Shown here one piece after another: positions 1 to 23,766 of a stretch of 64,000 nt of DNA. The stretch is from Candidatus Pacebacteria bacterium UBA6180 (GTDB taxonomy: Bacteria; Patescibacteriota; Microgenomatia; UBA1400; PJMF01). The notes under the pieces are model-generated. The model did no database searches, was not told the DNA's origin, and worked only from the letters and a program-made list of their open reading frames with translations. The position numbers and the translations under genes are program-made. Within the stretch, counting starts at the first letter, position 1. Each line of letters begins with the position of its first letter. The stretch is from positions 25,384-89,383 of the forward strand of contig DITQ01000006.1 of NCBI GenBank assembly GCA_002422165.1, written 5' to 3'.

Positions 1-392
1 TAGTTCAGTACCAAGAAGCCTGGTCTGTTTTTTTGCACAGCCCAATTTTTGGGATTGGCGACGGGATGTTTATTCCTACCTCTTTCCAGCTTTTTCCAAA
101 GGGCGTGATGACTTATTTCCCAGAAAACGTGCACAACGGCTTTTTCCTGCTGCTTGTGGAGCGCGGAACAGTTGGTCTAATCTTTAGTTTGAGTTTCATT
201 TATTTGCTACTTAGGACAGCCGCTAAAAGTCAATTATCAAGAGCTAATCAAACAATGATATACTCTGGATTAGCCGCTTCTCTCTGCATGATGATTTTTC
301 ATCCGGAGAGAAATTTTATGAGTTTGCTTGTGATCATCAGCATAGTCTTGCTTCATTATGAAAAATACCATTCAGTCAAAAATAATATCTAG
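1..392 (+). CDS. C-terminal fragment of an O-antigen ligase / Wzy_C-domain membrane protein; frame is open to the window start
   Basis: Frame 3 is open from position 3. Motif NVHNGFFLLLVERG followed by a hydrophobic helix resembles the conserved loop of O-antigen ligase/polymerase (Wzy_C) proteins. The listed ORF starts at a TTG, so the true start is upstream of the window. Confidence 0.4.
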   Translation, partial: VQYQEAWSVFLHSPIFGIGDGMFIPTSFQLFPKGVMTYFPENVHNGFFLLLVERGTVGLIFSLSFIYLLLRTAAKSQLSRANQTMIYSGLAASLCMMIFHPERNFMSLLVIISIVLLHYEKYHSVKNNI

Positions 393-1227
393 AATTAAGA
401 AACTCTCCTCTCTTGATATTTTGGGTGTGTTTGCCATTTTTTTCGTGACTGTCAGCGTCTATTTTTTCCTAGGACGACGAACGGAATATCTAGATATTAC
501 TATTCGTTTGTTCAATCATGACGCGCCCGAATACGTATTGGACAGTAATCAGCCAAAACACTGGTACATAGAGCATATCGTGCCTGGCAAAGTTCAAAAA
601 AGTGGCCTGGGCGAAAAGTTGGTAGAGATCATTGATGTTTACAGCTATCCTAACGGTTATGTTTACAACGATGTCTACGTGACCTTGCGACTCAAAACTG
701 CTCAAAACAAAATCACCAAACAGTACATCTATGAAGGTAGTCCGTTATTGATTCACGACGTGCGCTCTTTTCGCATTGCTGATGTTATCCTGCATGGAGA
801 GATTATCGACATCGATCGTGAGAAGGTGGAACTGCAGAAACTAAAGGTAATTTTTGAATTAATTCCTAAAAACTCTAATTTTTCTAACAACAGTCAAGCG
901 ATTTTCAAAGGCATTGAAAACAATTTAGCTGACTTGATTGAAAAAGACCTGACAATCAATGACAGCAAAGGAACAACACTTGTCAAAGTGGTTAAAGTTG
1001 ATAAAAAAATGGGTGAAGTTATTTTAGCCAATCAAAACGGTTTACAAAAAATTCCAAATCCAGATATGACTCAAGTTTTCCTTGAAACAGAAATAGCTGC
1101 AGAAAAAATCAACAATTTTTATTTTTATCGCAAAGAAGAATCTTTAATTGTCGATCAAAGCATTTACTTAACTTTTGACATGTTCACGGTGGTTGGTAAA
1201 ATCATTAAAATTGAAGAACAATTCTGA
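358..1227 (+). CDS. hypothetical membrane-anchored protein (N-terminal TM helix), glycan-locus associated
   Basis: 289-aa ORF with a hydrophobic segment ILGVFAIFFVTVSVYFFL near the N-terminus. No catalytic motif recognised. Confidence 0.35.
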   Translation: MKNTIQSKIISRIKKLSSLDILGVFAIFFVTVSVYFFLGRRTEYLDITIRLFNHDAPEYVLDSNQPKHWYIEHIVPGKVQKSGLGEKLVEIIDVYSYPNGYVYNDVYVTLRLKTAQNKITKQYIYEGSPLLIHDVRSFRIADVILHGEIIDIDREKVELQKLKVIFELIPKNSNFSNNSQAIFKGIENNLADLIEKDLTINDSKGTTLVKVVKVDKKMGEVILANQNGLQKIPNPDMTQVFLETEIAAEKINNFYFYRKEESLIVDQSIYLTFDMFTVVGKIIKIEEQF

Positions 1228-1237
1228 TAAAACAGAG

Positions 1238-2098
1238 ATGAAAATTCCCAAGATCTCCATCGTCACTCCCTCTTATAATCAGGGCAAATTCATTGAACAA
1301 ACCATCCAATCGGTTCTATCGCAAAATTACACTAATCTTGAATGCGTAATTATCGACGGCGGTTCTAGTGATCAGAGTCTCAAAATCATTGGTAAATATC
1401 AAAAAAAACTCAAACACTTTGAAAGCAAAAAGGACCGCGGCCAGTCGCACGCTATCAACAAGGGTTTTGCCAAAACAAATGGTGAAATCATGGCTTGGAT
1501 TAACAGTGATGACATACTTAAACCAGGAACTTTGCGACTTGTCGCTAGCATTTTCGCCAATTTTCCAGAAATCGAGTGGATTAGCAGCCTGCCATCCACT
1601 ATTACTGCTGATGGACAACAAGTTTATCTGGCCCAACCACCACTCTACTCGCGATCTATGATTCGCCGTGGCCTCTACACTCGCAAAATGCTTGGTTTTA
1701 TCATGCAAGAAGGCACTTTTTGGCGACGATCGCTATGGGAAAAAGCAGGCGGTAAGCTAGAAGAAGTACCCTACACTATGGACATGAAACTCTGGCAAAA
1801 GTTTGCTAAACATACATCGCTTTACTTAGTCGAGTCATGTCTGGCTAGTTACCGCCTCAACCCAGAACGTAAAAATAATGACAGTCACCAAAACTACTAT
1901 CTTGAGATGGGCGATACTTGGCCGCCGATAATTTCTCATCTGCTTAAGTTTACTTGGAGACAAGTTGCTAAACTCGCGCATCACCTGCGCCTAGTCCCCA
2001 AAATTTATTTCGATCAAAACACTTTGAAGTGGAAATTTCGCCGCAACTTATTTGAGGTAGAATCGTTCGAGCTGCTTGGCGACACTCAACCAGGATAA
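1238..2098 (+). CDS. glycosyltransferase family 2
   Basis: N-terminus KISIVTPSYNQGKFIEQTIQSVLSQNYTNLECVIIDGGSSD plus the DxD region WINSDD is the typical GT2 (GT-A) signature. Start placed at the ATG at 1238 (MKIPKISIV) rather than the ORF-track start. Confidence 0.8.
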   Translation: MKIPKISIVTPSYNQGKFIEQTIQSVLSQNYTNLECVIIDGGSSDQSLKIIGKYQKKLKHFESKKDRGQSHAINKGFAKTNGEIMAWINSDDILKPGTLRLVASIFANFPEIEWISSLPSTITADGQQVYLAQPPLYSRSMIRRGLYTRKMLGFIMQEGTFWRRSLWEKAGGKLEEVPYTMDMKLWQKFAKHTSLYLVESCLASYRLNPERKNNDSHQNYYLEMGDTWPPIISHLLKFTWRQVAKLAHHLRLVPKIYFDQNTLKWKFRRNLFEVESFELLGDTQPG

Positions 2099-3214
2099 TT
2101 TTTCCGCTAGTTGGCGAGCGTTTTTGCCCAACTCATCAATTTTCTTTTGATCATTAAGCAGTTCAGAAATACCAGCAGCAAATTCTTCTGGATTCTCAGA
2201 AAATAATTGACCAACTTTTTCTTTTTTTAGAATTTTGGCCACTTCGCCAGTTGGGTTAGAAACAATTGGTCGACCAGCTGCCAAATAGTCTCCTAGCTTG
2301 TTAGGAAATTTGCCCAAGTTAATCTCCTTGTTGGCGAAGGGTAAAAACATTAGGTCACAAGCGGCTAAATATTGACTTAAAGCTTCTCTCTTCACTACGC
2401 CAAAGCGCAAAACTGCCTGACTAGCCAATTTATTTTGGCGAATTATTTCTTCAAAAACAGGCAAAGTCGGCCCAAGCAGCATTAGATTTACATCTGCCCT
2501 AAGTTTACGAAGCTCCATAAATGTCTTGGCCAGCAATTCCTCATCGTAAGTGCCCACATATAGGTAAGCCAAAATTTTGCTTTTGATCGGCAAGTTTAAC
2601 TTTTTTCTGGCCTGCGTTAGAGAGTCAGGCTTGATGTCGTCAATGTTGGCGCCAACTCCCAGAAACAAAGTCTGCTTGCTTTTACCCCTAATTATTTTGG
2701 CTTTGCGGAGCAAGTCGTCGCTGATAGGTGTCACCACATCAGGCAATTTGATAAATAATTTTTCCATGTAATGGTCGAGGTTTTTGGTCAAAAAACTAAA
2801 ATAGCCGTAACGCCGATCGGCAATGCCGCCCTTGCCCCACAGATCAGCCCAGTCAAGAAACCACTTGGTATATGGAAAACATATTTTTCGAACCATAGCG
2901 GGAATGGTAGCGCTTGGACGATGGTTGAAACTGTGAATTACTTGGCATTTGGAGAAAAGAATTACCAGGCAGCGAAAAAAAATGTCAAAAGGATCATAAC
3001 CACCTTTGCGAAAACGGTAAGGCAAAAGCCCAATTGATTCCACCACCACCACGCCATTTTCAACCGAAAAACGCGGCCAAATTGACAGTTTTCTGGCGCT
3101 CGTCCACAAGGTGACGCGGTGACCTAGCTTGACCAAACCTTCAGCCAGAGAAAGCGAGCGCAAATAGCTGCCGCCAATTTCCTTGGCTTCGTAAGTGGAA
3201 AAAATTATGTTCAT
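2048..3214 (-). CDS. glycosyltransferase family 4 (GT-B, group 1)
   Basis: C-terminal EX7E-like region ending FPNKLGDYLAAGRPIVSNPTGEV, typical of GT4 retaining transferases. 388 aa. Confidence 0.75.
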   Translation of the reverse strand: MNIIFSTYEAKEIGGSYLRSLSLAEGLVKLGHRVTLWTSARKLSIWPRFSVENGVVVVESIGLLPYRFRKGGYDPFDIFFRCLVILFSKCQVIHSFNHRPSATIPAMVRKICFPYTKWFLDWADLWGKGGIADRRYGYFSFLTKNLDHYMEKLFIKLPDVVTPISDDLLRKAKIIRGKSKQTLFLGVGANIDDIKPDSLTQARKKLNLPIKSKILAYLYVGTYDEELLAKTFMELRKLRADVNLMLLGPTLPVFEEIIRQNKLASQAVLRFGVVKREALSQYLAACDLMFLPFANKEINLGKFPNKLGDYLAAGRPIVSNPTGEVAKILKKEKVGQLFSENPEEFAAGISELLNDQKKIDELGKNARQLAEKLSWLSVAKQLERFYLK

Positions 3215-3966
3215 AGTTTAATTTTTTTTATGAAAGTCAATAGTTTAGTCCCTAGCATTTTAACCAAATATTTTGGAATAATGATTAGGTAGCGCCGCCA
3301 CAGGCGGCGCGGCTCCACAAGTAAACGCCACAACCATTCTAAGCCAATTCTCTGCATCAAAATTGGAGCTTGCTTTACTTTTCCAGTCATAAAAGAAAAT
3401 GCTGCTCCTACACAAAAAATTTTAGTTTCTGTCGAATTTTCTTTGAGCCAGGCAGCTAGCTCTAGTTGCTTGGGAGAACCAATGCCAAGCCAAATAAACT
3501 TTGACTTAGCTTGGATCACGGCCCGCAAACATTTTTTCTCTAGAACCGCAATTTTAGGCAAACAAAAATATTTTGCGTGCAATTTTGGATATTTATGAGC
3601 TACAACTCTTTGCATTTTTTCAAAAGTTTCTTGGTCTGCGCAAACAAAACAGTGGGACTGTTTACTTTTAGTTTTGTTAAAAATACTTAAAACAGACAAC
3701 ATTAAATCTGGACCATAAACACGATCGAAGCTTTTCAAATATCTAAGGTTAAAGAAACGGGTTAACCACATGCTATCGCTGGTACAAAAGTCAACAGAAT
3801 CATAAAAATCATTGTTCTGTAACAATGCCAAATCATTTAAAGAACAAGGTAAAATAATTTGCGAAGATTTGTTTTTTTCAATTGGTTTGCAAAAAAAATC
3901 AACCAACTCGCTTTTTTTACCTAAAATAAACAGTTTTTTTTCTAGATTTACTTGCATATTTCTCAT
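3211..3966 (-). CDS. WecB/TagA/CpsF family glycosyltransferase (GT26)
   Basis: Motifs FIWLGIGSPKQLELAAWL and GAAFSFMTGKVKQAPILMQRIGLEWLWRLLVEPRRLWRRY match the GT26 (TagA/WecG) C-terminal signature. Confidence 0.75.
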   Translation of the reverse strand: MRNMQVNLEKKLFILGKKSELVDFFCKPIEKNKSSQIILPCSLNDLALLQNNDFYDSVDFCTSDSMWLTRFFNLRYLKSFDRVYGPDLMLSVLSIFNKTKSKQSHCFVCADQETFEKMQRVVAHKYPKLHAKYFCLPKIAVLEKKCLRAVIQAKSKFIWLGIGSPKQLELAAWLKENSTETKIFCVGAAFSFMTGKVKQAPILMQRIGLEWLWRLLVEPRRLWRRYLIIIPKYLVKMLGTKLLTFIKKIKL

Positions 3967-3999
3967 GCTATTATGTCATTAATTCTAGAAATTAATTTG

Positions 4000-6597
4000 A
4001 TGAAAAAACTTATAGCCTCAATCATTCTAGCAACCGTCCTTATCCTTATTGTAGTAAGTGCAACTGTCTGGAAAAACAATGCCACGAATCAAAAAAACTG
4101 GCAATTTTTAATCAAAGATCAAATTGGAGCACAGTCAATTCTTAACGTCGGGCGCAACTTAACTTTCGATAAAAATTCAATTTTTTTTAGCGATGGTAAA
4201 GGTCTGATTCATTCGCTAAATAAACACAGTGGACAAATAAATTGGTTGCGACAAATAGAAGACCACTCTCCATTTTCAATAACTCAAGATGACAATTTTA
4301 TTTATGTTTCCAGTTTTGACAGTTCAATATATAAAATTGACAAAGAAAATGGTTATATAAAATGGAAGTTCAATATTCCAGATTTTTTTTGGCCAGATAC
4401 CGAAGTCATTTTTGATGAGAACGATGAAAGTATCTTTTTCGCTGATAGGGGTGGCAATCTTTACGCCATAAACAAAGAGAGTGGGAAAGAAGCGTGGAAA
4501 AAAGAATTCGAAAAAATAGACAATACAAAAGTTTTTGTAGAAGACTCCATTCATTTTGGGTTCTTGAGCCAAAACGAAGACCATTTAATAGCAGATCACT
4601 TTCCAAGTAAAACAATTTATACCATAAATAAAAAAACTGGCGACATAAATTCTCAAAAACAATCTGATTTAAAAATAAATTTCGAGCCAAAGAAAAATTT
4701 TCTCATATTTGACAATTACGAGTTAAAAATAAAAAATAACGTCATCAGTCAACCACTGCTAGAATTAATTGATAAAAACCAAAATTTAGTTTGGAGTTAT
4801 CAAACAGAACACAGGGTAAATACAGGTGAAATATATCAAGACGAAAATAGAATTTATTATCTGAGTGCACACAACACCATCTTGGAATCAGTTAATATTA
4901 GTCGCAAAAATCCAAACGCAAAAGCATTTTCAAAAATAAATTTCAAATTAAATGAAAATTTTGCCGCTCACTACCCGTATCAAAACTCTAACCCTCAAGT
5001 AGATGCTGCTTTTAAACCAAAAAGCTGGATGTTGAAAGTTGGAGAGAAAATTAATTATTTTAAATTTGTATCTAAAAACTTTTTCAGTCTTTTTTCATTC
5101 GCATATAGCTTCGAAGAAAAAAATGACTTTTTAGAAATAGCCATTCACCATCAAGATAATTTTTATAAAAATAAGTTTACAGAAGTTAAAGTAGCAGCCG
5201 AGTTTGAGAATAAAGAAAATGGAAAAAAAATTAAAGTAAATGGATTTTATGAAGACAAAAATACCTGGAAAATCAGAGCTAAATTAGGAAAAGGGACCTG
5301 GAAATATCAGGTAAAAATTCAAACCCCCTTTTGGAAAAAAAAGGTTAAAGGATTTGTAACTCCAAACAAAACCGAACAGACAAGTATTCAAATCAAAGAA
5401 AATGGATTCGCTCTTGGAGATTCATTATTTTTTCCAATTGGAATACAAGATGTTATTAAAGACTCAAATAAAGATGGAAGTCCTTTTAACGACATGGGCT
5501 ATGCAAAACAAACCACTCCATCAAGCAAAGCGGAAGAATACGAATATACCGATCTTGACAAATATTTAGAGATATACAGAAATGAGGCGAACATGAATAT
5601 TTTTCGATATGGACCAGACAACTGGGCTCCGTACATCTGGAGAGATTTGTCAAACCATAAAAACTTCGCCATGGAAACAAAGGGAAGCTTAAAAGGAGAT
5701 TTTATTTTAGAATCTGCTAGAGAGAAAAATTACAAAATAATGATGAGTATTTTTGCTTTTTATCCCCCGTACACCTCCAAAGAAGCTATTTCTAAAAAAG
5801 AAAATCAAAAAGTTTTAACTCAATACTTAGATTATGTAATCGCTCGCTACAGCGCCCAGGTTGACATTTGGGAGCTCACAAACGAAGCTTTACCTAGCTT
5901 GGAATGGCAAAATTTTATCAGCAACTATCTATTTAAAAATGACCCATACCAACATCCAATAACCACCAATTTAGAAGAAACTAGACTTGAAAACTCGGAT
6001 CTCCTCTCAATTCACCATTATCCAAAAACTCCAGAAAACAACCGGGAATTAGTTGAGCAAATTGAGAAAATAAATTTAGAACATAATTGGTCTAAAGCAA
6101 AAATTATCAGTGAGTTTGGTTTTGCCAATGAAAACTATTTTGCTGGCTCAGCAGACCTGCTAAGAAAAACAGCTTGGATTTTGACAATGCAAAAAATTGG
6201 TCTAGTAACTTGGAACACCGGCCATGGCTATTTCGAAAGCGAAACAAATGGAAACATCTATGTTGGGCCAGAAGAGCGAACATACTTAAAAAACCTAACC
6301 GATTTTCTTCCAAAGTTATCAGCAACAGCAGTAAGTGAACAAAAAATTGATGAGGAAAACAATGTAATGATGTATGGGTTGAAAGATGACTCTTATGAAA
6401 TTTTTTATCTAATCAAACTAGATGTTCTAAATGAACCAAAAGAGTTCCTGCTGAATGCAAAATTTGATGGAAAAATTCAATTTGTAGATCCAAGAAGTGG
6501 AAAAGTTTTAGAAGACGATCTAATTTATAAAGATCAAAAAGCAATTTCTTTGCCTACTTTCGCAGATGATATTGCCATAAAAGTTGTTTTTAATTAA
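4000..6597 (+). CDS. large exported/membrane-anchored protein: N-terminal TM, PQQ-like beta-propeller repeats, C-terminal glycoside-hydrolase-like (GH5-type TIM barrel) domain
   Basis: N-terminal helix KLIASIILATVLILIVVSATVW. Repeats of the type GNLYAINKESGKEAWKK and IYKIDKENGYIKWKF (BamB/PQQ-like). The C-terminal half has WELTNEA (NEP-like acid/base motif) and ISEFGFA (candidate nucleophile Glu). Start moved to the ATG at 4000. Confidence 0.45.
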   Translation: MKKLIASIILATVLILIVVSATVWKNNATNQKNWQFLIKDQIGAQSILNVGRNLTFDKNSIFFSDGKGLIHSLNKHSGQINWLRQIEDHSPFSITQDDNFIYVSSFDSSIYKIDKENGYIKWKFNIPDFFWPDTEVIFDENDESIFFADRGGNLYAINKESGKEAWKKEFEKIDNTKVFVEDSIHFGFLSQNEDHLIADHFPSKTIYTINKKTGDINSQKQSDLKINFEPKKNFLIFDNYELKIKNNVISQPLLELIDKNQNLVWSYQTEHRVNTGEIYQDENRIYYLSAHNTILESVNISRKNPNAKAFSKINFKLNENFAAHYPYQNSNPQVDAAFKPKSWMLKVGEKINYFKFVSKNFFSLFSFAYSFEEKNDFLEIAIHHQDNFYKNKFTEVKVAAEFENKENGKKIKVNGFYEDKNTWKIRAKLGKGTWKYQVKIQTPFWKKKVKGFVTPNKTEQTSIQIKENGFALGDSLFFPIGIQDVIKDSNKDGSPFNDMGYAKQTTPSSKAEEYEYTDLDKYLEIYRNEANMNIFRYGPDNWAPYIWRDLSNHKNFAMETKGSLKGDFILESAREKNYKIMMSIFAFYPPYTSKEAISKKENQKVLTQYLDYVIARYSAQVDIWELTNEALPSLEWQNFISNYLFKNDPYQHPITTNLEETRLENSDLLSIHHYPKTPENNRELVEQIEKINLEHNWSKAKIISEFGFANENYFAGSADLLRKTAWILTMQKIGLVTWNTGHGYFESETNGNIYVGPEERTYLKNLTDFLPKLSATAVSEQKIDEENNVMMYGLKDDSYEIFYLIKLDVLNEPKEFLLNAKFDGKIQFVDPRSGKVLEDDLIYKDQKAISLPTFADDIAIKVVFN

Positions 6598-6602
6598 AAC
6601 CT

Positions 6603-8540: not shown

Positions 8541-8640
8541 AAGTACAATCTGAGACTATGGTTCATCCAAAAACAGATCGTTATAAAACAGCCAATAATC
8601 ACTCCTTTTGCAGGCGAGGATCGTGTTATAATTTCGGATC

Positions 8641-9894
8641 ATGAGCGGAGGAAAAAAAATCAAAAAAGCGGCTGTTTTAGTTGATGTCAAAACAAAACGC
8701 TACCTGGAGGAAAGCCAATCATTCACAACGATCCATAAATTAGCAAAACAACTTCACGGCAAGAGAATAGCACATATCAGTGTGTCAAGTCGCAGAGGCG
8801 GTGTGGCGCAAATTATTAAAAACTTAATTAAATTTCTCAAGGTAGTTGGTGTCAAAGTTGATTGGTACACTCTCCCAGAATCGAGACATTTTTTTAATGT
8901 TTCAAGAAATTTCAGAGATGTTTTGCAAGGAAAAAGAAAAAAAGTTTTTAAAGACGATGTGGATTTCTATCAGAAGTATCAGGAAAAACTAGCTAGCCAA
9001 ATTAAAATAAAAAACTATTCGCTCATTATCTTGCACGATTATCAAACACTATTTATGACCAATAAATTAGGTGAAAACTCCAAGCTTATTTGGCAATTTC
9101 ATCTAGACGCAGACTGGGACAACATTGATCAAACAATAAAGGAAAAAATAAAATTACAACTAAGACACTGCGATCGCTACATTTTTTCGGCAAAGGACTA
9201 CATTCCTAATTTTATAAACAGCGATCACTGCAAAATAATTCCGCCAGCTATTAATCCAGTTGAGAAAAAGAACATCTCACTTAGCCAAAGCGTAATTAAC
9301 AAAAAATTAAAGCGTCTTGGGATTGATCCAAAGAAACCAATTTTAGTGCAGGTAGATCGCTTCAATCCTTACAAAGACCAGTTGGGATTTTTGAAAGCAT
9401 ATCATATTGCCAAAATAAAACATCCTGATCTCCAAATTGTTTTTGTCTCACACAAAACAAATACTGTTGATGTTGAATTTGAAAATATTTATCAAAAACT
9501 TAAAAAGCTGTCACGAGGCGACAGCAATGTTTTCTTTTTTATTTCAAAAGAGAATAACGACGATATGGTGCGGTTATTTCAATCATGTGCCACTGTAGTA
9601 GTACAGAAAGCAACCAAGCAGGGTTTCGGCCTAGCAGTAACAGAAGCCATGTGGAAATCAAAGGCAGTCATTATTGCCCCAACTGTCGGAGCGCTGCTGC
9701 AAGTCAAAAATGGAAAATCTGGATTTGTAGCTAATAATTCTAAAGAATGTGCTGAGTTTATTTGCCAATTAGTAGAAAATCAACAGCTTAGATCAGCTAT
9801 TGAACACACATCCAAAGAAGTAGTGCAAAAAAAGTTTTTATTTCCAAGACTGGTAAAAGACTACTTGCTAATAATGAATGAAGCGCTACATTGA
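8641..9894 (+). CDS. glycosyltransferase family 4 (GT-B)
   Basis: C-terminal GFGLAVTEAMWKSKAVIIAPTVGALLQVKNGKSGFV is an EX7E-type nucleotide-sugar binding region. The N-terminal Rossmann half is HISVSSRRGGVAQIIKNL. Confidence 0.6.
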   Translation: MSGGKKIKKAAVLVDVKTKRYLEESQSFTTIHKLAKQLHGKRIAHISVSSRRGGVAQIIKNLIKFLKVVGVKVDWYTLPESRHFFNVSRNFRDVLQGKRKKVFKDDVDFYQKYQEKLASQIKIKNYSLIILHDYQTLFMTNKLGENSKLIWQFHLDADWDNIDQTIKEKIKLQLRHCDRYIFSAKDYIPNFINSDHCKIIPPAINPVEKKNISLSQSVINKKLKRLGIDPKKPILVQVDRFNPYKDQLGFLKAYHIAKIKHPDLQIVFVSHKTNTVDVEFENIYQKLKKLSRGDSNVFFFISKENNDDMVRLFQSCATVVVQKATKQGFGLAVTEAMWKSKAVIIAPTVGALLQVKNGKSGFVANNSKECAEFICQLVENQQLRSAIEHTSKEVVQKKFLFPRLVKDYLLIMNEALH

Positions 9895-9900
9895 AGAGAC

Positions 9901-10368
9901 ATGAAAATACATTATGTTTGCAATGGCAATGTGTTTCGCAGTAGACTCGCGGAGGCATATTCGCTTTCGCTTAATAATGGACATATTTATTCTTCAAGTG
10001 GTCTACGTGCAGCAACAAACGAGAATGGACCGATTGGATGGTATGCTGCTCGCATAGCGAAAAAGCGAAATTTATCTAGACTGCTCTCTCCTAGTTGGAC
10101 TACAACAACCTTGGATTTAATGAAACAACAAGATATTGTTGTTTTTTTATCAAAAAATGTTTTCAGTGATGCAGCTAATGTTTTCATTTTGGATCAACTT
10201 ACTTATGAGGTGTGGGACATACCAGACCTACCTGATTTTGGTTTTACCGATGATAATATTAGCGAGACGGAAGAAATGCGCAGCATTCTCACGTCGGAAA
10301 AAATATTCAATAAACTTACGAAACAAATTGATAGTTTTGTGTTAAATTTAAATGATGAAAATACTTAG
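9901..10368 (+). CDS. low-molecular-weight phosphatase family protein (LMW-PTP / ArsC-like, Wzb-like)
   Basis: N-terminal P-loop IHYVCNGNVFRSRLAEAY gives the CX5R(S) motif at residues 7-14. Size 155 aa. Confidence 0.6.
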   Translation: MKIHYVCNGNVFRSRLAEAYSLSLNNGHIYSSSGLRAATNENGPIGWYAARIAKKRNLSRLLSPSWTTTTLDLMKQQDIVVFLSKNVFSDAANVFILDQLTYEVWDIPDLPDFGFTDDNISETEEMRSILTSEKIFNKLTKQIDSFVLNLNDENT

Positions 10369-11830
10369 CATCGTTGCTGAGGTCATGCCTTTTTCAAGTG
10401 TTGGGGGTATGGCCAGAGGAACAAAATATTTAGCAGACGAATTGGTTGGTTTGAAAAATGAAGTAACAATATTCACTCCACTTCATAAGGATTCTGTTGA
10501 TTACTGTTCTAGGAACAACCATCGGCTTACAACCATATTTTCAAGCAGCTTGCCAAATAACTTTCGCTCATTCCAGGAATATGGGGACAAGCATTTCTCC
10601 ATACTGAAAATTAACAAAAAAGATCTAATCAGCAATTTTACTTTTTTCGATTACCCAGAGTTTTTTCGCCAACGAGCTAACGTTTATAATTACCATGATG
10701 ACGGACTACGTTTCTGGACATTCTCGGTTGGTTGTCTTGAATGGTTACTGGCACAAAAAAAAAGCAAGCAGTGGTTACCTGAATTAATTCATTGTCATGA
10801 TTGGCACACTTGTTTTTTGATAGAACAAATTAAAAAAAATTCTCGATATAAAGAATTAGCAAACATTCCAGTTTTACTGACCATACACAACTTTCGTTAT
10901 CAGGATAGCTCTGGGACAGCATTTCTTCGCCAGCTAACACCATTAGATTTACCGCTTGAAAAACTAAACCGTGCGGAGATCGAAAAACAAAATGCGCTTA
11001 GCATTGGCATTAAATATGCGGATTGCATCAATACGGTAAGTAAAACACATGCTCTAGAAGTCCAAGAGCCAGAATTTGGTTACAATTTAGCAAAAGAACT
11101 TAAAAATAAAAATGTTGTTGGCATTTTAAATGGACTAAACTATGAAGATTTTGACCCTAAAAAAGATTCTAAAATCTTTTTTAACTATGATGAAAAAAAT
11201 CTAATTGAAGGAAAAAAGAAAAATAAGCATTATTTACAAAAGCTTTTTGGATTGCCACAAAAGGGAGCTATGCTTTTTTGTTTTGTGGGAAGAGTCTCTG
11301 CTCAAAAAGGCATTGACTCGCTAACTGCCAGCTTGAAAAGGCTACTAAATAAACACAGGAATGTTCAATTCATATCTCTAGGCATTGGTGATGATTACTT
11401 TTGCGAGATGCTTTGGAAATTAGAAAAAGCATATCCAAAACAAGTTAAGGTTTTACTAAAACACGACGTTGATCTGCCAAGACAAATTTTTGCTGGAAGC
11501 GATTTGTGTCTTATACCCAGCAACTGGGAGCCTGGAGGAATTGTTGCCGTTGAGTCACAGCGATATGGATGCATTCCCCTAGTAAGGCGTGTCGGTGGGC
11601 TCAAAGACATAGTCAGCCAGTTCAGTGATAGCAATAGTACTGGCAACGGATTTGTATATCAAAAACAAACCATATCATCGCTACAGAGCAAAATAAAGCA
11701 AGCAATCACAATGTTTAATTCATCACCAATAAAATGGCTCTCTATCACCAGCAATGCCTTTAATTATAAAAGAGAATGGAGTGAAGTTGCTCACGACTAC
11801 AACCAGCTTTTTTTAAAAATGACAAGATGA
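10352..11830 (+). CDS. glycogen/starch-synthase-like glycosyltransferase (GT5-like, GT-B)
   Basis: N-terminus MKILSIVAEVMPFSSVGGMARGTKYLADEL parallels the GlgA start (MKIL..SE..PF.KTGGLADV). C-terminal GGIVAVESQRYGCIPLVRRVGGLKDIV parallels GlgA G.TQ..ALRYGT.P.VR.TGGL.DTV. Confidence 0.65.
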   Translation: MMKILSIVAEVMPFSSVGGMARGTKYLADELVGLKNEVTIFTPLHKDSVDYCSRNNHRLTTIFSSSLPNNFRSFQEYGDKHFSILKINKKDLISNFTFFDYPEFFRQRANVYNYHDDGLRFWTFSVGCLEWLLAQKKSKQWLPELIHCHDWHTCFLIEQIKKNSRYKELANIPVLLTIHNFRYQDSSGTAFLRQLTPLDLPLEKLNRAEIEKQNALSIGIKYADCINTVSKTHALEVQEPEFGYNLAKELKNKNVVGILNGLNYEDFDPKKDSKIFFNYDEKNLIEGKKKNKHYLQKLFGLPQKGAMLFCFVGRVSAQKGIDSLTASLKRLLNKHRNVQFISLGIGDDYFCEMLWKLEKAYPKQVKVLLKHDVDLPRQIFAGSDLCLIPSNWEPGGIVAVESQRYGCIPLVRRVGGLKDIVSQFSDSNSTGNGFVYQKQTISSLQSKIKQAITMFNSSPIKWLSITSNAFNYKREWSEVAHDYNQLFLKMTR

Positions 11831-12774
11831 TGCAAGAAAAAAATAGCAAGCAAAAGAAATTACTTCCTTTTCTCAAAGATAAATCCACTATCGAGAGAGA
11901 GTTATTTAAAAACCGACTCAATGAAAAGAAATTATTATCTTCTATCGAAAGCGCCTTAAGCCAAAAAAAGGGATCGCCATTTGTCATTCCAAAGCGCGGT
12001 CAGCCAGTCATTGCCCTAATGTCTGGAGGCATCGATACAACTGTGGTGATTGGCATGCTGATTGAGTTTTTTGGCTTGAGAGTTTACCCATTAATCATAG
12101 ACAGACAGCTACCGCATTCAAGAAAAATAAAAGCTGTTTGCAAAGACTTGAGCGACTATTTCAAAAATAAATACCCGACACACTTTCACCAACCTTTTAC
12201 CATTTCTCAAAAAATGCCTCACCAAAAATTTTCTTTACTTTATAGATTTGAAAATACTATTCTTTTTGACCAACAACGCGAAGGAATACCCCTACAACCA
12301 GCACTATATGCTTACCTCGCAGTTCAGTATGGCAAATACCTGCGTGCCACTCAAAATGTATATCCCCAGACTATTTTTGGAGGCTGGTTGCCAGAAAACT
12401 CAGAGTGGTATCGATATGAATCACTTTCCTCGCTTCGGTCTACGATGTTGCAAATAGCCACCATGGAACATGACTTTTCATGGCAATTCACCTCACTAGC
12501 AATTGAAAAAGAGCTGGGTTTATATTTATCAAAAGCACAGCTTGTTGCCATCGGGCATACACTTGGGATCCCACTAGAAAAAACGTGGACCTGCTACAAG
12601 GGAAAGCGTCACCAGTGCGGAACCTGTCCTCCATGCTGGACGCGGCAGCAAGCCTTCAAATTAGCGGGAGTAGTTGATGAGACAATTTATAAAGAAGGCT
12701 TTAATTTGAAAAATAAATTTAATGATGGCAGAGAATTTTTAAGAGATGTCAAAAGAAATTTCATTAAAAAATAA
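11827..12774 (+). CDS. QueC/ExsB-like PP-loop ATP pyrophosphatase with C-terminal Cys cluster
   Basis: PP-loop VIALMSGGIDTTVVIGML (SGGxDS/T) and C-terminal CYKGKRHQCGTCPPCWTRQQAF, a Zn-ribbon-like CxxC...CxxC as in QueC. Confidence 0.55.
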   Translation: MMQEKNSKQKKLLPFLKDKSTIERELFKNRLNEKKLLSSIESALSQKKGSPFVIPKRGQPVIALMSGGIDTTVVIGMLIEFFGLRVYPLIIDRQLPHSRKIKAVCKDLSDYFKNKYPTHFHQPFTISQKMPHQKFSLLYRFENTILFDQQREGIPLQPALYAYLAVQYGKYLRATQNVYPQTIFGGWLPENSEWYRYESLSSLRSTMLQIATMEHDFSWQFTSLAIEKELGLYLSKAQLVAIGHTLGIPLEKTWTCYKGKRHQCGTCPPCWTRQQAFKLAGVVDETIYKEGFNLKNKFNDGREFLRDVKRNFIKK

Positions 12775-13606
12775 AGCCGTTAAGTTTTATGACAATATTA
12801 AACTTAATTTAGGCATTAAGAAGTTTTTTAAGTACATTGCAAAATTGTTACTCAAAATACACTATTTTTTACTCGCACTATTGTATTATTACCCAAAATA
12901 TAAGGTTGAAAATTATGTTGGTAGAAAAATATCTCCTAAACTTAAAGTTCTAGAAGGACCCTTTAAGAAGTTGGCTTATCCATATTTTCCACTACCAGAG
13001 CAGCACTTTTCCACTATTTTACCTAAAATTAGTGGCGCATACGAAAAAGAGCTTTTTCCAGTCATCAAACAAATAAATAAACAAAAATATAGTGTTTTTA
13101 TAAATATTGGTTCTGATGAGGGCTATTATGCAGTCGGACTTGGCAAGCTAAATCCACAGGCAAAAGTCTACGCTATTGATATAAATAAAAAAGCTCTTTC
13201 TTTTTCAGTAGAGATGGCAAAAAATAATGATGTTAAAAATTACTTTAGCGTCGAATCTTCATCTCCATTTGCCATAGACAGGCTAATTGAAAATAAAACA
13301 TGCATCATTTGTGATTGCGAAGGATATGAAAAAACACTCCTAAACCCCAAAAAAATAGGTGGCCTAATCAATTCAGACATATTGGTGGAAGTTCATGGCA
13401 AAGCTATTGGCGATATACTACAAAAAAGATTTAGCCCAACGCATAATATCAAAAAAATTACACAAACCAACAAAATGATTGCCAAAGTCCCAATAAAATT
13501 TCTGTTTTTAAATTATTTTCACACCATAGATGAGATGAGATCTGAAGAATGCTTCTGGTTTTTTTTGAAAAGCCACTCCCACAACCCTAAAGGATCGGGT
13601 GCTTGA
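12746..13606 (+). CDS. FkbM-family methyltransferase-like protein
   Basis: SVFINIGSDEGYYAVGLG (compare DIGANIGYYS) and ICDCEGYEKTLL (compare IKIDVEGAEYEVL) match the FkbM family. Confidence 0.45.
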   Translation: MSKEISLKNKAVKFYDNIKLNLGIKKFFKYIAKLLLKIHYFLLALLYYYPKYKVENYVGRKISPKLKVLEGPFKKLAYPYFPLPEQHFSTILPKISGAYEKELFPVIKQINKQKYSVFINIGSDEGYYAVGLGKLNPQAKVYAIDINKKALSFSVEMAKNNDVKNYFSVESSSPFAIDRLIENKTCIICDCEGYEKTLLNPKKIGGLINSDILVEVHGKAIGDILQKRFSPTHNIKKITQTNKMIAKVPIKFLFLNYFHTIDEMRSEECFWFFLKSHSHNPKGSGA

Positions 13607-13613
13607 GATTAGG

Positions 13614-14342
13614 TTAAGTATTATTGCTACTTAAATTTTCTAGCTCAATTAGCTTGTTGCAATTCTTTTTGAGAAAATCTCTCCACTGACTCACCATTAA
13701 TACAGTCGTTTCATTCTCAATCATGTCTTGAATGGTTTTTTCAGATTTTTTCCTAAATTTTTCATCTCCCATGTTCATTACTTCATCTAATAACAAAATA
13801 TCTGGCTCAGCATGAACAGCCACACTAAAACCTAATCTTAACTTCATTCCACTAGAGTATGTATACAATGGCGCAGTAATAAAATCGCCAATACCAGCAA
13901 AATCTACAATTTGAGCAAATTTGGCCTTTGTCTCCTCTCTAGACATGCCAATCACCAAGCCATTGAGAAAAATATTTTCCTGACCGGTCAAGTCTGGATG
14001 GAAACCAGCCTCAAGATCTATTAGAGAAATAATCCTGCCCTTTGTCTTGACTTTACCAGTGGTCGGTGCACTAATGCCGGCAATGATTTTGAGCAAAGTG
14101 GTCTTACCAGCACCATTTGGTCCATGAAAACCCACCTTTTCACCTTTTCGAATCTGTAAATTGACGTCTTGCAGTGCCCAGTATTCCTCCCTCGGCTGAA
14201 AACGCAAGACACGACCAACGTCCTCTGCCAAAGTCGGCTTCTCATGGTGGACGATGTACTTTTTGCCCACACCCTTGAGGTTGATTACCACCTCACCAAG
14301 GTTTTTACTTTTGCGTATAATTTCTTCTTTTAAAGTTGTCAT
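13614..14342 (-). CDS. ABC transporter ATP-binding protein, polysaccharide/teichoic-acid export type (Wzt/TagH-like)
   Basis: Walker A GFHGPNGAGKTTLLKII, ABC signature YSSGMKLRLGF, Walker B ILLLDEV. 242 aa with no C-terminal carbohydrate-binding extension. Confidence 0.85.
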   Translation of the reverse strand: MTTLKEEIIRKSKNLGEVVINLKGVGKKYIVHHEKPTLAEDVGRVLRFQPREEYWALQDVNLQIRKGEKVGFHGPNGAGKTTLLKIIAGISAPTTGKVKTKGRIISLIDLEAGFHPDLTGQENIFLNGLVIGMSREETKAKFAQIVDFAGIGDFITAPLYTYSSGMKLRLGFSVAVHAEPDILLLDEVMNMGDEKFRKKSEKTIQDMIENETTVLMVSQWRDFLKKNCNKLIELENLSSNNT

Positions 14343-14380
14343 TTTTTATAATTTACCTTTTTATTTAACCCTGATGAAAA

Positions 14381-14536
14381 ACATTACAATTAATGTTCTG
14401 ACCATTGGAGGTGCTGGGCAAAGAACTAGAAAAATAAATAAAGCAAATCGACAGCACCTCCATTGAGAGAAACAAAGATTGCCTCATTAATAAGCATTTG
14501 TTTTTAGTTGAACGTGTCAGAACACTAATTGTAATG
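14381..14536. repeat. nested inverted-repeat element (about 156 bp) in the wzm-wzt intergenic spacer; MITE-like or structured RNA
   Basis: Outer 22-bp arms acattacaattaatgttctgac (14381-14402) and gtcagaacactaattgtaatgt (14515-14536) with 1 mismatch. Inner perfect 11-bp arms tggaggtgctg (14406-14416) and cagcacctcca (14452-14462). Confidence 0.5.
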
Positions 14537-14540
14537 TTTC

Positions 14541-15383
14541 TCATAACCAATCATCAAAATTTTTACTTTCCCTTCCAAAAACCCACCAACCCAGATAAAA
14601 CAGATAAAAGATCACTAGTAAGCCGACCCAACTAAATTCAAGCAAAGTAATCGGCAGTCCCATCAGCGCATAATGAAACAACTCAACAATAAAAGTCATC
14701 GGATTGAGATAAAAAACTGGCCAAAGCAAATCAGGCAAGAGATTGAGTGCATAAATCACTGGTGTGGCATAAAACCACAGCATCACTGCTAACTGCACTA
14801 TAAAGTTAACATCTCTAAAACGAACGTTGAGTGAAGAAGTGAAAAGTGATAGGCCAACTGTAAAAATCAAAAGAAGTAAAATCGCCGGCAAAAGCCACAA
14901 CATCCTTCCCAAATAGCTAAAAAGCGCCAGCATTCCGTACCCTTCCACGAATAGCTTGTCCGCCACCAGCGCCCCCACTAACAAAACCAAAGCGATTAAA
15001 AAATGAAATAAATTAGACAAAATAATCGACAAAACAATTGCCTCACGAGGAAATTTGGCTTTTTTAACCAAGTTGCGCTCATAAAAAAAGGCTGGTGTGC
15101 ATTTGGTCAAACTTTGGGCAAAAAAATTCCAGGGTAGAAGCCCTGCGAACAAAAATAGAAAATAATTATCTACTCGCACCGGCACAAAAAACTGAAAAAC
15201 AAAACCCATCACCATCATCTGTAATAAAGGGTTGATGACAATCCACAAAAACCCCAAGGTCGCATGTTTATACCGCGCCTTAATCTCCTTCTTCGTCATC
15301 ACCAGCAAAAAATCTAGCCAATGACTCTGCTTCTTAGTCAAGTGTAAAAGATTCTTCATCAGGTCACCAACATACCACACCAA
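14541..15383 (-). CDS. ABC-2 type transporter permease (Wzm/TagG-like)
   Basis: 280-aa polytopic membrane protein with about 6 hydrophobic helices, immediately upstream on the same strand of the Wzt-like ATPase. Confidence 0.7.
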   Translation of the reverse strand: MVWYVGDLMKNLLHLTKKQSHWLDFLLVMTKKEIKARYKHATLGFLWIVINPLLQMMVMGFVFQFFVPVRVDNYFLFLFAGLLPWNFFAQSLTKCTPAFFYERNLVKKAKFPREAIVLSIILSNLFHFLIALVLLVGALVADKLFVEGYGMLALFSYLGRMLWLLPAILLLLIFTVGLSLFTSSLNVRFRDVNFIVQLAVMLWFYATPVIYALNLLPDLLWPVFYLNPMTFIVELFHYALMGLPITLLEFSWVGLLVIFYLFYLGWWVFGRESKNFDDWL

Positions 15384-17889: not shown

Positions 17890-17963
17890 GCGTGTGTAGC
17901 TCAATTGGTTAGAGCTCCAAGCTTATACCTTGGCGGTTCTAGGTTCGAGTCCTAGCACACGCA
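17890..17963 (+). tRNA. tRNA, anticodon UAU (tRNA-Ile reading AUA) by manual folding
   Basis: 7-bp acceptor stem gcgtgtg/cacacgc, D-arm tagctcaattggttagagc, anticodon stem ccaag/cttgg with loop cttatac (U33, anticodon tat at 17924-17926, A37), T-arm ctagg-ttcgagt-cctag, discriminator A. No encoded CCA. Confidence 0.7.
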
Positions 17964-18007
17964 CGTGGCTAGTCCCCGGAGAGGACAGGTGCTAAAATAA
18001 TAAAGTT

Positions 18008-19421: not shown

Positions 19422-19423
19422 AT

Positions 19424-23764: not shown

Positions 23765-23766
23765 AA

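What the first reader, a model, noticed from the sequence alone, without database searches (positions are those of the whole stretch)
1..15383. Envelope-glycan locus with an unusual enzyme mix: PLP decarboxylase, QueC-like amidoligase, GlgA-like GT, two methyltransferases, LMW phosphatase, ABC-transporter-dependent export
Besides standard GT2/GT4/GT26 transferases and a Wzm/Wzt exporter (the TagA-like GT26 and the ABC export pathway point to a teichoic-acid or ABC-dependent O-polysaccharide-like polymer), the cluster encodes several less usual enzymes. These are a group-II-type PLP decarboxylase, a QueC/ExsB-family PP-loop enzyme with a Zn-ribbon, a TylF-like and an FkbM-like methyltransferase, a glycogen-synthase-like GT5 and a CX5R phosphatase. 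In glycan clusters, PP-loop enzymes usually act as sugar-carboxylate amidotransferases or ligases. Together with a decarboxylase-derived amine, this predicts an amidated or aminoalkyl-decorated, methylated glycopolymer not matching a described pathway. An 881-aa exported PQQ-propeller/GH5-like protein is embedded in the locus; it may be a processing glycanase.
Basis: partly seen in the sequence, partly recalled or inferred. Interest (0 to 1): 0.55.

Follow-up and report, generated by a model that had tools for sequence, protein, structure and literature searches.

The report
Conserved surface-sugar decoration module in CPR bacteria
This is a cell-surface sugar-polymer gene cluster from a tiny uncultured (CPR) bacterium, and its odd enzymes are not a random mix: three of them (a decarboxylase, a methyltransferase and an unusual relative of the queuosine enzyme QueC) travel together in at least 13 related genomes, which points to an undescribed chemical decoration of the cell surface.

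Summary
Every ORF and domain call in 1-15383 holds, and the locus continues at least 7.5 kb upstream of the window. The host is a bacterium whose relatives are all Patescibacteria/CPR.

The new result is comparative. Methyltransf_24, an HDC/SerDC-type PLP decarboxylase and a divergent 315-aa QueC-family enzyme form a module seen in 13 distinct CPR loci.
- All 5 loci found through the decarboxylase also carry the QueC-like gene and MT24.
- One locus swaps in a decarboxylase of a different fold.
- A Wzm/Wzt ABC-2 exporter lies within 10 kb in 10 of 13 loci.
- The MT24-decarboxylase pair and the QueC-like gene have different phylogenetic histories but are always found together.

The QueC-like enzyme keeps the PP-loop, the Zn site and the QueC/Cap9 fold. 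It has lost the motifs that recognise 7-carboxy-7-deazaguanine, and a 2026 survey of the family does not describe its clade.

GT5, the TreT-like GT4 and the phosphatase are accessories of sub-types only.

Best reading: an ATP-dependent ligation of a decarboxylase-derived amine onto an exported glycopolymer, analogous to C. jejuni HS:2 amidation.

Two things weaken it. No gene for making a sugar carboxylate is seen in any locus. Sister clades are fused to the peptide-binding PqqD domain, which keeps a peptide substrate possible. The chemistry is inferred, not shown.

The parts
1..392 (+). 3' end of a 496-aa Wzy_C (O-antigen ligase/polymerase-like) gene that begins upstream of the window
   Evidence: Pfam Wzy_C. 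Open frame to base 3. Full gene in L014, which is 100% identical to window 1-3347.
358..1227 (+). 289-aa protein with one N-terminal TM helix and no known domain; recurs in related loci
   Evidence: No Pfam, NCBIfam or PADLOC hit. Homologues in L016 next to Wzy_C and in L017 next to the decarboxylase.
1175..2098 (+). GT2 glycosyltransferase
   Evidence: PF00535, 90 bits.
2048..3214 (-). GT4 glycosyltransferase
   Evidence: PF13692 and PF00534.
3211..3966 (-). WecG/TagA/CpsF-family (GT26) glycosyltransferase
   Evidence: PF03808, 129.5 bits. TIGR00696, 96 bits, above its cut-off.
3952..6597 (+). 881-aa membrane-anchored extracytoplasmic protein: PQQ-type beta-propeller + DUF5060 + GH-A (GH5-like) TIM barrel + C-terminal beta-sandwich
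   Evidence: Pfam. Propeller hits in PDB. AF2 model with best Foldseek hit GH5 ManDH5, E 3.7e-23. Invariant N644-E645 and E721, full-length numbering. Orthologs in L015 and L016.
6603..7292 (+). Methyltransf_24 SAM methyltransferase; core module member, abuts the decarboxylase gene
   Evidence: PF13578, 73.9 bits. Present in 11 of 13 loci, almost always adjacent to the decarboxylase. Co-varies with it, r = 0.63.
7293..8540 (+). Group II PLP-dependent decarboxylase of the HDC/SerDC branch; core module member
   Evidence: PF00282. Nearest solved relatives are histidine and serine decarboxylases. K275, D243 and H156 invariant.
8641..9894 (+). TreT-like GT4 glycosyltransferase; accessory, sub-type specific
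   Evidence: PF21269 + PF00534. NF041139, 223 bits, below its cut-off. An ortholog only in L006.
9901..10368 (+). 155-aa LMW-PTP/ArsC-like CX5R phosphatase; accessory
   Evidence: CNGNVFRS motif. Weak ArsC hits. The L006 ortholog hits PF01451.
10352..11830 (+). GT5 GlgA-type alpha-glucosyltransferase; its stop overlaps the QueC-like start; accessory in 5 of 13 loci
   Evidence: TIGR02095, 363 bits against a cut-off of 328. Orthologs are 39-43% identical, and the position of the Lys in the KTGGL motif is variable.
11827..12774 (+). Divergent QueC-family PP-loop/Zn enzyme (315 aa); core module member, putative ATP-dependent adenylating ligase
12746..13606 (+). Second class-I SAM methyltransferase (weak FkbM-like); accessory
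   Evidence: Sub-threshold methyltransferase hits. An ortholog in L006.
13614..14342 (-). Wzt/TagH-type ABC ATPase (242 aa, no carbohydrate-binding extension)
   Evidence: PF00005. Nearest NCBIfam models are galactan and teichoic-acid exporters, below their cut-offs.
14541..15383 (-). Wzm/TagG-type ABC-2 permease
   Evidence: PF01061. NF050109, 67 bits, below its cut-off.

Best explanation
Window 1-15383, together with about 7.5 kb upstream, is a cell-envelope glycopolymer locus of a CPR/Patescibacteria bacterium. Cytoplasmic GT2, GT4 and TagA-like transferases build a lipid-linked glycan. A Wzm/Wzt ABC-2 pump exports it. A Wzy_C-type ligase and a surface PQQ-propeller/GH-A protein act outside the membrane.

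Embedded in the locus is a conserved decoration module that, in everything examined here, occurs only in CPR genomes: MT24 + HDC/SerDC-type PLP decarboxylase + a divergent QueC-family enzyme.

Proposed mechanism (inferred, not shown):
1. The decarboxylase turns an amino acid, possibly a phospho- or hydroxy-amino acid, into an amine.
2. The QueC-like enzyme uses ATP to adenylate a carboxylate and joins amine and polymer, or its lipid-linked precursor, through an amide. This is the chemistry QueC, Cap9 and QatC perform on 7-carboxy-7-deazaguanine.
3. MT24, coupled to the decarboxylase, methylates the substituent or a neighbouring sugar.
4. In four loci a phosphatase (LMW-PTP type here, Metallophos elsewhere) removes a phosphate from the intermediate, as in C. 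jejuni HS:2.
5. In the window's sub-type, the GT5, the TreT-like GT4 and a second methyltransferase add a methylated alpha-glucosyl part.

Shown: gene content, retained catalytic residues, fold, and conserved linkage across loci. Inferred: substrates, order of steps, and the identity of the acceptor.
For: Linkage.
- 13 distinct loci were examined: 8 found through the QueC-like protein and 5 through the decarboxylase.
- All 5 decarboxylase-anchored loci have the QueC-like gene and MT24 within a few genes.
- A group II decarboxylase is present in 11 of 13 loci. L010 has a fold-III Orn/DAP-type decarboxylase instead. L011 shows none in the 10 kb upstream and its contig ends 134 bp after the QueC-like gene.
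- A Wzm/Wzt pair lies within 10 kb in 10 of 13 loci. It directly abuts the QueC-like gene in L006, L011 and L016.

Not simple co-inheritance. Identity of the decarboxylase does not track identity of the QueC-like protein (r = 0.10), while decarboxylase and MT24 track each other (r = 0.63). The parts have therefore been re-assorted yet always end up together.

Enzymology.
- PLP Lys, Asp and His are invariant.
- The PP-loop and Zn Cys4 are invariant.
- QueC-family enzymes are known carboxylate-adenylating amide formers, including ligation to protein amines (PMC13329287).

Precedents.
- C. jejuni HS:2: Cj1436 decarboxylase, Cj1438C ATP-dependent amidation of polymer-bound GlcA, Cj1435 phosphatase, ABC-dependent export (PMC11800397).
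- Phosphatases lie next to the module in the window, L006, L012 and L021.

Glycan context. WecG, GT2/GT4, Wzy_C, Bac_transf, DegT and PIG-L occur in the loci.
Against: - No UDP-glucose dehydrogenase, Kdo/sialic-acid gene or pyruvyl-transferase gene (that is, no source of a glycan carboxylate) is listed in any of the 13 loci.
- L004 and L009 have the module plus GT5 but no exporter and no other GT nearby.
- Sister clades of the QueC-like enzyme carry a C-terminal PqqD peptide-binding domain. L015 has a free PqqD beside the module.
- L021 has a FemAB-type aminoacyl transferase inside the module.
- L016 has a queuosine-precursor transporter inside the cluster.
- The decarboxylase substrate could not be assigned. 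It scores below every NCBIfam equivalog cut-off.
- Nothing biochemical is known for any member.
Confidence: 0.45

Rival explanations
1. The module acts on a peptide or protein, not a sugar. The QueC-like enzyme adenylates a peptide carboxylate, or attaches an acid to a peptide or protein amine as Cap9 and QatC do. The decarboxylase and MT24 tailor the partner. The ABC-2 pump exports a modified (glyco)peptide, or the product decorates the neighbouring cell-wall-anchored proteins.
For: - 40 of 46 representatives of one sister clade are 390 aa or longer. Five of seven long family members scanned (those later placed in this clade) carry a C-terminal PqqD/RRE domain.
- L015 has a stand-alone PqqD beside the QueC-like gene, the decarboxylase and MT24.
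- Radical SAM/SPASM genes lie in L010 and L016, and a YcaO gene in L012.
- FemAB lies inside the module in L021.
- The closest fold, Cap9, is a protein N-terminus ligase.
- Thr/Pro-rich, LPXTG-like surface proteins flank the module in the window, L016 and L017.
Against: - No conserved small ORF that could be a precursor peptide was found in 12 loci. All shared short ORFs were shadows of the known genes.
- The window's clade has no PqqD.
- In L018 the PqqD genes themselves sit beside Bac_transf, WecG and Wzy_C, so PqqD here may belong to glycan assembly.
- PLP amino-acid decarboxylases are not a usual RiPP tailoring enzyme (own knowledge).
Confidence: 0.2
2. The product is a soluble or lipid-bound small glycoside, not a polymer decoration. 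It would be built like mycothiol or the primer of mycobacterial methylglucose lipopolysaccharide: GT4 + phosphatase, then an ATP-dependent ligase, alpha-1,4-glucosyl extension by GT5, and O-methylation.
For: - L004 and L009 carry only MT24, decarboxylase, GT5 and QueC-like, with no exporter or other GT nearby.
- GT5 and QueC-like overlap by their stop and start codons in four loci.
- L002 adds a GH57 and a GT4. This recalls the Rv3030 (MT), Rv3031 (GH57-like) and Rv3032 (alpha-1,4-GT) cluster of MGLP (PMC4555173).
- A TreT-like GT4 directly followed by a phosphatase is the usual two-step glycoside pattern (own knowledge).
Against: - GT5 is absent from 8 of 13 loci, while the exporter is present in 10 of 13.
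- In L006, L011 and L016 the QueC-like gene directly abuts wzm/wzt.
- No GpgS-type or inositol-phosphate-type enzyme is present.
Confidence: 0.15
3. The QueC-like enzyme still uses a 7-deazaguanine acid (CDG) or another carboxylated base and couples it to the decarboxylase-derived amine. The result would be a nucleobase-tagged surface polymer or metabolite.
For: - The closest folds are the two CDG-using enzymes.
- The C-terminal 59 residues are 47% identical to a canonical QueC.
- QatC shows that CDG use can survive complete remodelling of the QueC motifs.
- A queuosine-precursor transporter (TIGR00697, 122 bits against a cut-off of 51) lies inside the L016 cluster.
- A weak nucleoside deoxyribosyltransferase hit lies next to the module in L004 and L005.
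Against: - The residues essential for QueC activity are replaced in the clade: Y35 by R, R99 by Q, and YPDC is lost.
- No queD, queE or folE is found in any locus, and there is no canonical QueC in the window.
- The nucleotide-context member (Ham1 fusion beside ThyA, L022) belongs to a different clade that keeps near-canonical motifs.
- The transporter link rests on a single locus.
Confidence: 0.08
4. Chance neighbours: an ordinary glycogen synthase, a queuosine QueC and an amino-acid decarboxylase that merely lie inside a glycan locus.
For: GT5 passes the glgA subfamily threshold. Sources annotate the QueC-like homologues as 7-cyano-7-deazaguanine synthase.
Against: - Linkage is conserved in 13 loci despite re-assortment.
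- The canonical QueC motifs are lost and the protein is 315 aa against about 220.
- No que or glg partner genes are nearby.
- The genes overlap or abut, which suggests co-translation.
Confidence: 0.02

Closest known systems
C. jejuni HS:2 capsule amidation (Cj1436 decarboxylase, Cj1438 C-domain amide ligase, Cj1435 phosphatase; ABC-dependent export) - PMC11800397
   Same: The logic is the same. A PLP decarboxylase makes an amine, an ATP-dependent ligase joins it to the growing polymer, a phosphatase trims it, and an ABC transporter exports the product.
   Different: The ligase here is a QueC-fold PP-loop enzyme and shows no detectable similarity to Cj1438C. The phosphatase is LMW-PTP or Metallophos type, not HAD. 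No UDP-Glc dehydrogenase is present. A methyltransferase is an obligatory partner. The host is a CPR bacterium. Function here is untested.
Canonical QueC, and the Cap9 and QatC branches of PF06508 (PMC13329287)
   Different: The YxQxHxxE, VPxRN and YPDC motifs are replaced. There is a 55-aa N-terminal helical extension and a family-specific D..WQ(F/Y)TSL segment. Neighbours are a decarboxylase, MT24 and Wzm/Wzt, not queD/queE, a CD-NTase or qatABD. The clade is not among the ten clusters analysed in the 2026 survey.
WbuX/WbpG/PseA N-acetyl-sugar amidotransferases (the PP-loop enzymes usual in O-antigen loci)
   Same: PP-loop ATPases that modify glycan precursors. One such gene, fused to a GATase domain, lies 5-7 kb upstream of the window.
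Wall-teichoic-acid and S-layer-glycan type ABC-dependent pathways of Gram-positives (TagA, TagGH; Wzy_C-type ligase) - own knowledge
   Same: TagA-family GT, a short Wzt without a carbohydrate-binding domain, a Wzm permease, a Wzy_C protein, methyltransferases, and neighbouring Thr/Pro-rich wall-anchored proteins.
   Different: No TagO, TagB or TagF type genes were seen in the ORFs scanned here. The polymer is unknown. The three-gene decoration module has no counterpart.
Mycobacterial methylglucose lipopolysaccharide genes (Rv3030 MT, Rv3031 GH57-like, Rv3032 alpha-1,4-GT) - PMC4555173
   Same: A GlgA-like alpha-1,4-glucosyltransferase together with methyltransferases, plus a GH57 in L002.
   Different: MGLP is cytoplasmic and has no decarboxylase, PP-loop enzyme or exporter. 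The resemblance covers only the accessory genes.

Membership tests
Canonical QueC (7-cyano-7-deazaguanine synthase, PF06508 cluster 1) | SGGxDS PP-loop | tested here: met
   SGGIDT in the window protein. S66, G67, G68 and D70 are invariant in 16 homologues.
Canonical QueC (7-cyano-7-deazaguanine synthase, PF06508 cluster 1) | C-terminal C(x)nCxxCxxC zinc site | tested here: met
   C256, C264, C267 and C270 are present in 175-177 of the 177 family sequences aligned.
Canonical QueC (7-cyano-7-deazaguanine synthase, PF06508 cluster 1) | Substrate motifs YxQxHxxE, VPxRN and YPDC (Y35, R99 and Y131 are essential; PMC13329287) | tested here: not met
   The window has DRQLPH, IPLQP and WYRYES. Against a canonical QueC (P0020), Y is replaced by R93 and R by Q157.
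Canonical QueC (7-cyano-7-deazaguanine synthase, PF06508 cluster 1) | Neighbourhood with queD/queE; length about 220 aa | tested here: not met
   No que genes in 13 loci. The protein is 315 aa with an N-terminal extension.
Cap9 / QatC anti-phage QueC-like proteins | Partner genes (CD-NTase or qatA/B/D) and a full-length match to the defence models | tested here: not met
   PADLOC and NCBIfam match only the C-terminal Zn region (E 3e-6 to 8e-9). No partner genes in any locus.
WbuX/WbpG N-acetyl sugar amidotransferase (TIGR03573) | Match to the family model; closest fold | tested here: not met
Group II PLP-dependent decarboxylase (PF00282) | Family model above threshold; Schiff-base Lys, PLP-N Asp, ring-stacking His | tested here: met
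   45.8 bits against a cut-off of 27. K275, D243 and H156 invariant. Aligns with the HK motif of HDC and SerDC.
Histidine decarboxylase / serine decarboxylase (specific function) | Equivalog score; specificity residue (Tyr111 region of AtSerDC, PMC11407765) | tested here: inconclusive
   NF002748 gives 131 bits against a cut-off of 305. The Tyr111 region lies N-terminal of the alignable core, so the substrate is not assigned.
GlgA-type GT5 glycogen/starch synthase | TIGR02095 threshold; C-terminal E-P-G-G and GGL motifs | tested here: met
   363.4 bits against 328.45. WEPGGIV and RRxGGL are invariant in 5 orthologs.
GlgA-type GT5 glycogen/starch synthase | Lys of the N-terminal KTGGL motif (own knowledge) and a glg gene context | tested here: not met
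   That position is S, Y, H, K or Q in the five orthologs (PFSxxGGLAR). No glgB, glgC or glgP nearby. The gene is coupled to the QueC-like gene instead.
ABC-transporter-dependent glycan export (Wzm/Wzt, TagGH) | Adjacent ABC-2 permease and ATPase most similar to glycan exporters | tested here: met
   PF01061 and PF00005. The best NCBIfam models are galactan and teichoic-acid exporters, below their equivalog cut-offs.
LMW protein-tyrosine phosphatase / ArsC fold | CX5R(S/T) P-loop at the N-terminus; family model | tested here: inconclusive
   The motif is present. Only weak ArsC hits (E 0.003-0.2). The ortholog in L006 carries PF01451.
GH5 / clan GH-A glycoside hydrolase (C-terminal half of the 881-aa protein) | (beta/alpha)8 fold with an N-E acid/base and a second Glu nucleophile; family model | tested here: inconclusive
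   Fold and both Glu are present. The model is of moderate quality (pLDDT 68), and no GH5 Pfam hit was found.
C. jejuni HS:2-type polysaccharide amidation system | UDP-GlcA supply, Cj1438C-type ligase, HAD phosphatase | tested here: not met
   None of these protein families is present. Only the logic is shared.

The most novel reading that the evidence does not exclude
The CPR QueC-like superfamily, defined by a shared D..WQ(F/Y)TSL segment, has about 220 representatives at 50% identity. Its clades are either coupled to decarboxylase/MT24/exporter or fused to PqqD. It may be a new class of ATP-dependent conjugating enzymes that attach an unusual acid (a peptide, or even a 7-deazaguanine carboxylate) to an amine on an exported surface polymer or wall protein. 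That would be a surface-directed counterpart of the protein 'deazaguanylation' recently found in anti-phage systems.
Probability: 0.12. Interest if true: 0.85.

Novelty: new variant of a known kind. Interest (0 to 1): 0.6.

Why it matters
CPR bacteria are ultra-small and mostly episymbiotic, and their surface chemistry is essentially unknown. That surface is what touches the host cell.

A three-gene module that is kept together across many CPR lineages, even while its parts are swapped between loci, marks a surface modification these organisms care about. The module is small enough to test by heterologous expression.

It also adds a further functional branch to the QueC family, next to tRNA/DNA base synthesis and anti-phage protein modification. 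It may also provide a new type of amide-forming enzyme.

Tried and rejected
- Precursor peptide. I clustered all 20-90-aa ORFs from 12 loci to look for a conserved one. Only shadow ORFs inside known genes were shared.
- Defence system. PADLOC gave only Zn-ribbon-level hits.
- Promoter and terminator scans gave no more sites than shuffled sequence.
- Large neighbourhood census. The statistics therefore rest on 13 loci.
- Only 6 loci were found among 185,579 species genomes. The word-index protein search found just 20 QueC-like homologues. The exhaustive HMM search showed the family is larger: 222 representatives at E <= 1e-30.
- Decarboxylase substrate. I tried to read it from the SerDC specificity residue, but that region is not alignable.
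- Methyltransferases and phosphatase. Sequence search against solved structures was uninformative.
- Organism name. None could be obtained.
- Ham1-fusion member as evidence for a nucleotide substrate. Rejected, because it belongs to another clade that keeps near-canonical QueC motifs.

Full report
**Observation**

ORF listing with Pfam and NCBIfam confirms the gene content described for 1-15383.
- A Wzy_C gene runs off the window start.
- Next come a 289-aa TM protein of unknown family, a GT2, a GT4 and a WecG/TagA-family GT.
- An 881-aa membrane-anchored protein carries a PQQ-type propeller and DUF5060.
- A co-directional block follows at 6603-13606: Methyltransf_24, Pyridoxal_deC, TreT-like GT4, a 155-aa CX5R protein, GT5 (passes TIGR02095), a QueC-like protein and a second methyltransferase.
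- A convergent Wzt/Wzm pair closes the region.

The C-terminal half of the 881-aa protein has invariant WELxNEA and IISEFG motifs. Its AF2 model is of moderate quality (pLDDT 68), and the best solved match is a GH5 mannanase (E 3.7e-23). 'GH5-like' therefore holds at fold level.

G+C is 32-37% in 4-14 kb, against 45-50% beyond 16 kb.

A contig identical over 3347 bp (L014) extends the locus 7.5 kb upstream. It adds the full Wzy_C, two GT2 (one beside DUF2304), a GT4, an NAD-dependent epimerase/dehydratase, and a 638-aa GATase fused to a WbuX-type amidotransferase. It has no priming phosphoglycosyl transferase.

**Organism**

The window carries DnaA, an ATP-dependent DNA ligase, a mevalonate pathway and tRNA-Ile(UAU). 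All named homologues of the key proteins come from Patescibacteria/CPR: Gottesmanbacteria, Pacebacteria and Shapirobacteria. No name is attached to the window's own record.

**The conserved module**

Contexts were fetched for 8 distinct loci found through the QueC-like protein. Five more were found independently through decarboxylase homologues of 35-50% identity. Profile and phmmer mapping, with the gene tables, gives these counts.

| Feature | Loci (of 13) | Notes |
|---|---|---|
| Group II decarboxylase | 11 | L010 has a fold-III Orn/DAP-type decarboxylase instead; L011 shows none in 10 kb upstream and its contig ends 134 bp after the QueC-like gene |
| Methyltransf_24 | 11 | nearly always adjacent to the decarboxylase |
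| Wzm/Wzt pair within 10 kb | 10 | directly abuts the QueC-like gene in L006, L011 and L016 |
| Wzy_C | 7 | |
| GT5 | 5 | overlaps or abuts the QueC-like start in four |
| Adjacent phosphatase | 4 | LMW-PTP in the window and L006; Metallophos in L012 and L021 |
| TreT-like GT | 2 | window and L006 |

All five decarboxylase-anchored loci contain the QueC-like gene. Chance cannot give this for a gene present about once per genome.

Pairwise identities show that decarboxylase and MT24 co-vary (r = 0.63) but decarboxylase and QueC-like do not (r = 0.10). The window's decarboxylase, MT24, exporter and propeller protein resemble L015/L016. Its QueC-like and GT5 resemble L002, L004, L006 and L009. 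The parts have been re-assorted and still always occur together. This argues for functional dependence rather than inheritance of one block.

**The QueC-like enzyme**
- It keeps SGGxD(T/S) and four Zn cysteines.
- Only the C-terminal 59 residues align to a canonical QueC by profile comparison (47% identity).
- The motifs that a 2026 study showed to be essential for QueC (YxQxHxxE, VPxRN, YPDC; PMC13329287) are replaced: R93 for Tyr, Q157 for Arg.
- That study analysed the ten largest PF06508 clusters, and none corresponds to this clade.

An exhaustive HMM search finds 222 representatives at E <= 1e-30. Clustering gives four main clades.
- The window's clade (52 sequences, about 307 aa) holds every module-associated member except L015.
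- A clade of 46 sequences (about 414 aa) includes all five members found to carry a C-terminal PqqD peptide-binding domain. In L018 these sit beside Bac_transf, WecG and Wzy_C.
- A clade of 39 sequences includes L015, which has a free PqqD beside the module.
- A small near-canonical clade has one member fused to Ham1 beside ThyA and a kinase (L022).

**The decarboxylase**

It belongs to the HDC/SerDC branch of group II. K275, D243 and H156 are invariant and a loop Tyr (Y302) is nearly invariant. It scores below all equivalog cut-offs. The SerDC specificity residue (PMC11407765) lies outside the alignable core, so the substrate is open.

**Mechanism**

The best-supported reading is a glycopolymer decoration. 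The decarboxylase supplies an amine. The QueC-like enzyme, by the carboxylate-adenylation chemistry of its family, forms an amide that joins it to the polymer or its lipid-linked precursor before export. MT24 methylates. A phosphatase, where present, removes a phosphate.

The same logic is established for the C. jejuni HS:2 capsule (PMC11800397), there with different ligase and phosphatase families.

The accessory GT5, TreT-like GT, GH57 (L002) and extra methyltransferases suggest a methylated alpha-glucosyl part in some sub-types. This recalls the mycobacterial MGLP genes (PMC4555173).

**Weak points**
- No source of a glycan carboxylate is seen in any locus.
- Two loci lack exporter and GTs.
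- The PqqD, rSAM/SPASM, YcaO and FemAB neighbours hint at peptide chemistry.
- One locus has a queuosine-precursor transporter.
- No conserved precursor-peptide ORF was found, and there is no similarity to defence systems beyond the Zn ribbon.

**Verdict**

The find is a conserved module, seen here only in CPR genomes, built around an undescribed QueC-family clade. Its chemistry is inferred and testable.

Noticed in passing
window 14374-14544: The 198-nt gap between wzt and wzm holds a 29-nt inverted repeat (93% complementary, arms 113 nt apart). It encloses a second 14-nt inverted repeat at 14403-14416 / 14452-14465. This could be a structured regulatory element or a small mobile element.
   Followed up: partly
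window 6603-6626 and 7293-7316; L015, L016, L017, L020, L021 decarboxylase starts: The decarboxylases begin with a conserved MFGIKT(K/F)I motif. The neighbouring MT24 of the window and of L016 begin with the same motif (MFGIKT / MFKIKT). The second methyltransferase has NLGIKKF near residue 20. A shared N-terminal tag on adjacent enzymes is unexplained.
   Followed up: partly
window 15452-16837 and 16840-17841; L016 18217-19437; L017 16984-20403: Next to the locus lie TM-anchored, Cys-rich proteins with long Thr/Pro linkers (PTTTTPPP, TPTDEPTV). They have a C-terminal LPXTG-like signal (LPETG, LPQSG, VPTQSG) followed by a hydrophobic tail. Paralogues flank the same module in L016 and L017. They are candidate wall-anchored, possibly O-glycosylated proteins.
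   Followed up: partly
window 17890-17964: tRNA-Ile with anticodon TAT (UAU), uncommon in bacteria.
   Followed up: no
window 18423-25026: A mevalonate-pathway block on the minus strand: diphosphomevalonate decarboxylase, mevalonate kinase and HMG-CoA reductase.
   Followed up: no
window ~50000-54648: DnaA lies at 53155-54648 (-). The cumulative GC skew reaches its minimum at about 50-52 kb, so the replication origin is probably here.
   Followed up: no
window 29936-31789 and 54748-56919: An ATP-dependent (archaeal/eukaryotic-type) DNA ligase and a TraG-like P-loop protein. Large ORFs at 56900-58348 and 60332-63895 have no Pfam match.
   Followed up: no
L014 450-2366 (5-7 kb upstream of the window start): A 638-aa fusion of a class-II glutamine amidotransferase with a WbuX-type N-acetyl-sugar amidotransferase. 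It is a second, conventional PP-loop glycan enzyme in the same locus and suggests an acetamidino sugar.
   Followed up: partly
L018 1583-2818, 6988-8235, 8237-9074: Two paralogous QueC-like-PqqD fusion genes and a free PqqD gene that overlaps a Bac_transf priming transferase. They sit beside NTP_transf_5, FAD_binding_4, WecG and Wzy_C. PqqD domains wired into glycan loci are unexplained.
   Followed up: partly
L022 9265-12048: A near-canonical QueC-like protein fused to a Ham1 (ITPase) domain lies between a thymidylate-synthase homologue and a kinase-like gene. It looks like a modified-nucleotide pathway in a CPR genome.
   Followed up: no
L021 9499-12429; L012 9067-9999; L020 12360-14810: Variable inserts inside the module. 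L021 has a FemAB aminoacyl-transferase between the decarboxylase and the QueC-like gene, and a Metallophos phosphoesterase after the QueC-like gene. L012 has a Metallophos before it. L020 has an NMT1/OpuAC-type ABC importer beside it.
   Followed up: no
L016 12042-12710: A YhhQ/Vut_1 queuosine-precursor transporter (122 bits against a cut-off of 51) lies inside the glycan cluster, about 2 kb from the QueC-like gene.
   Followed up: partly
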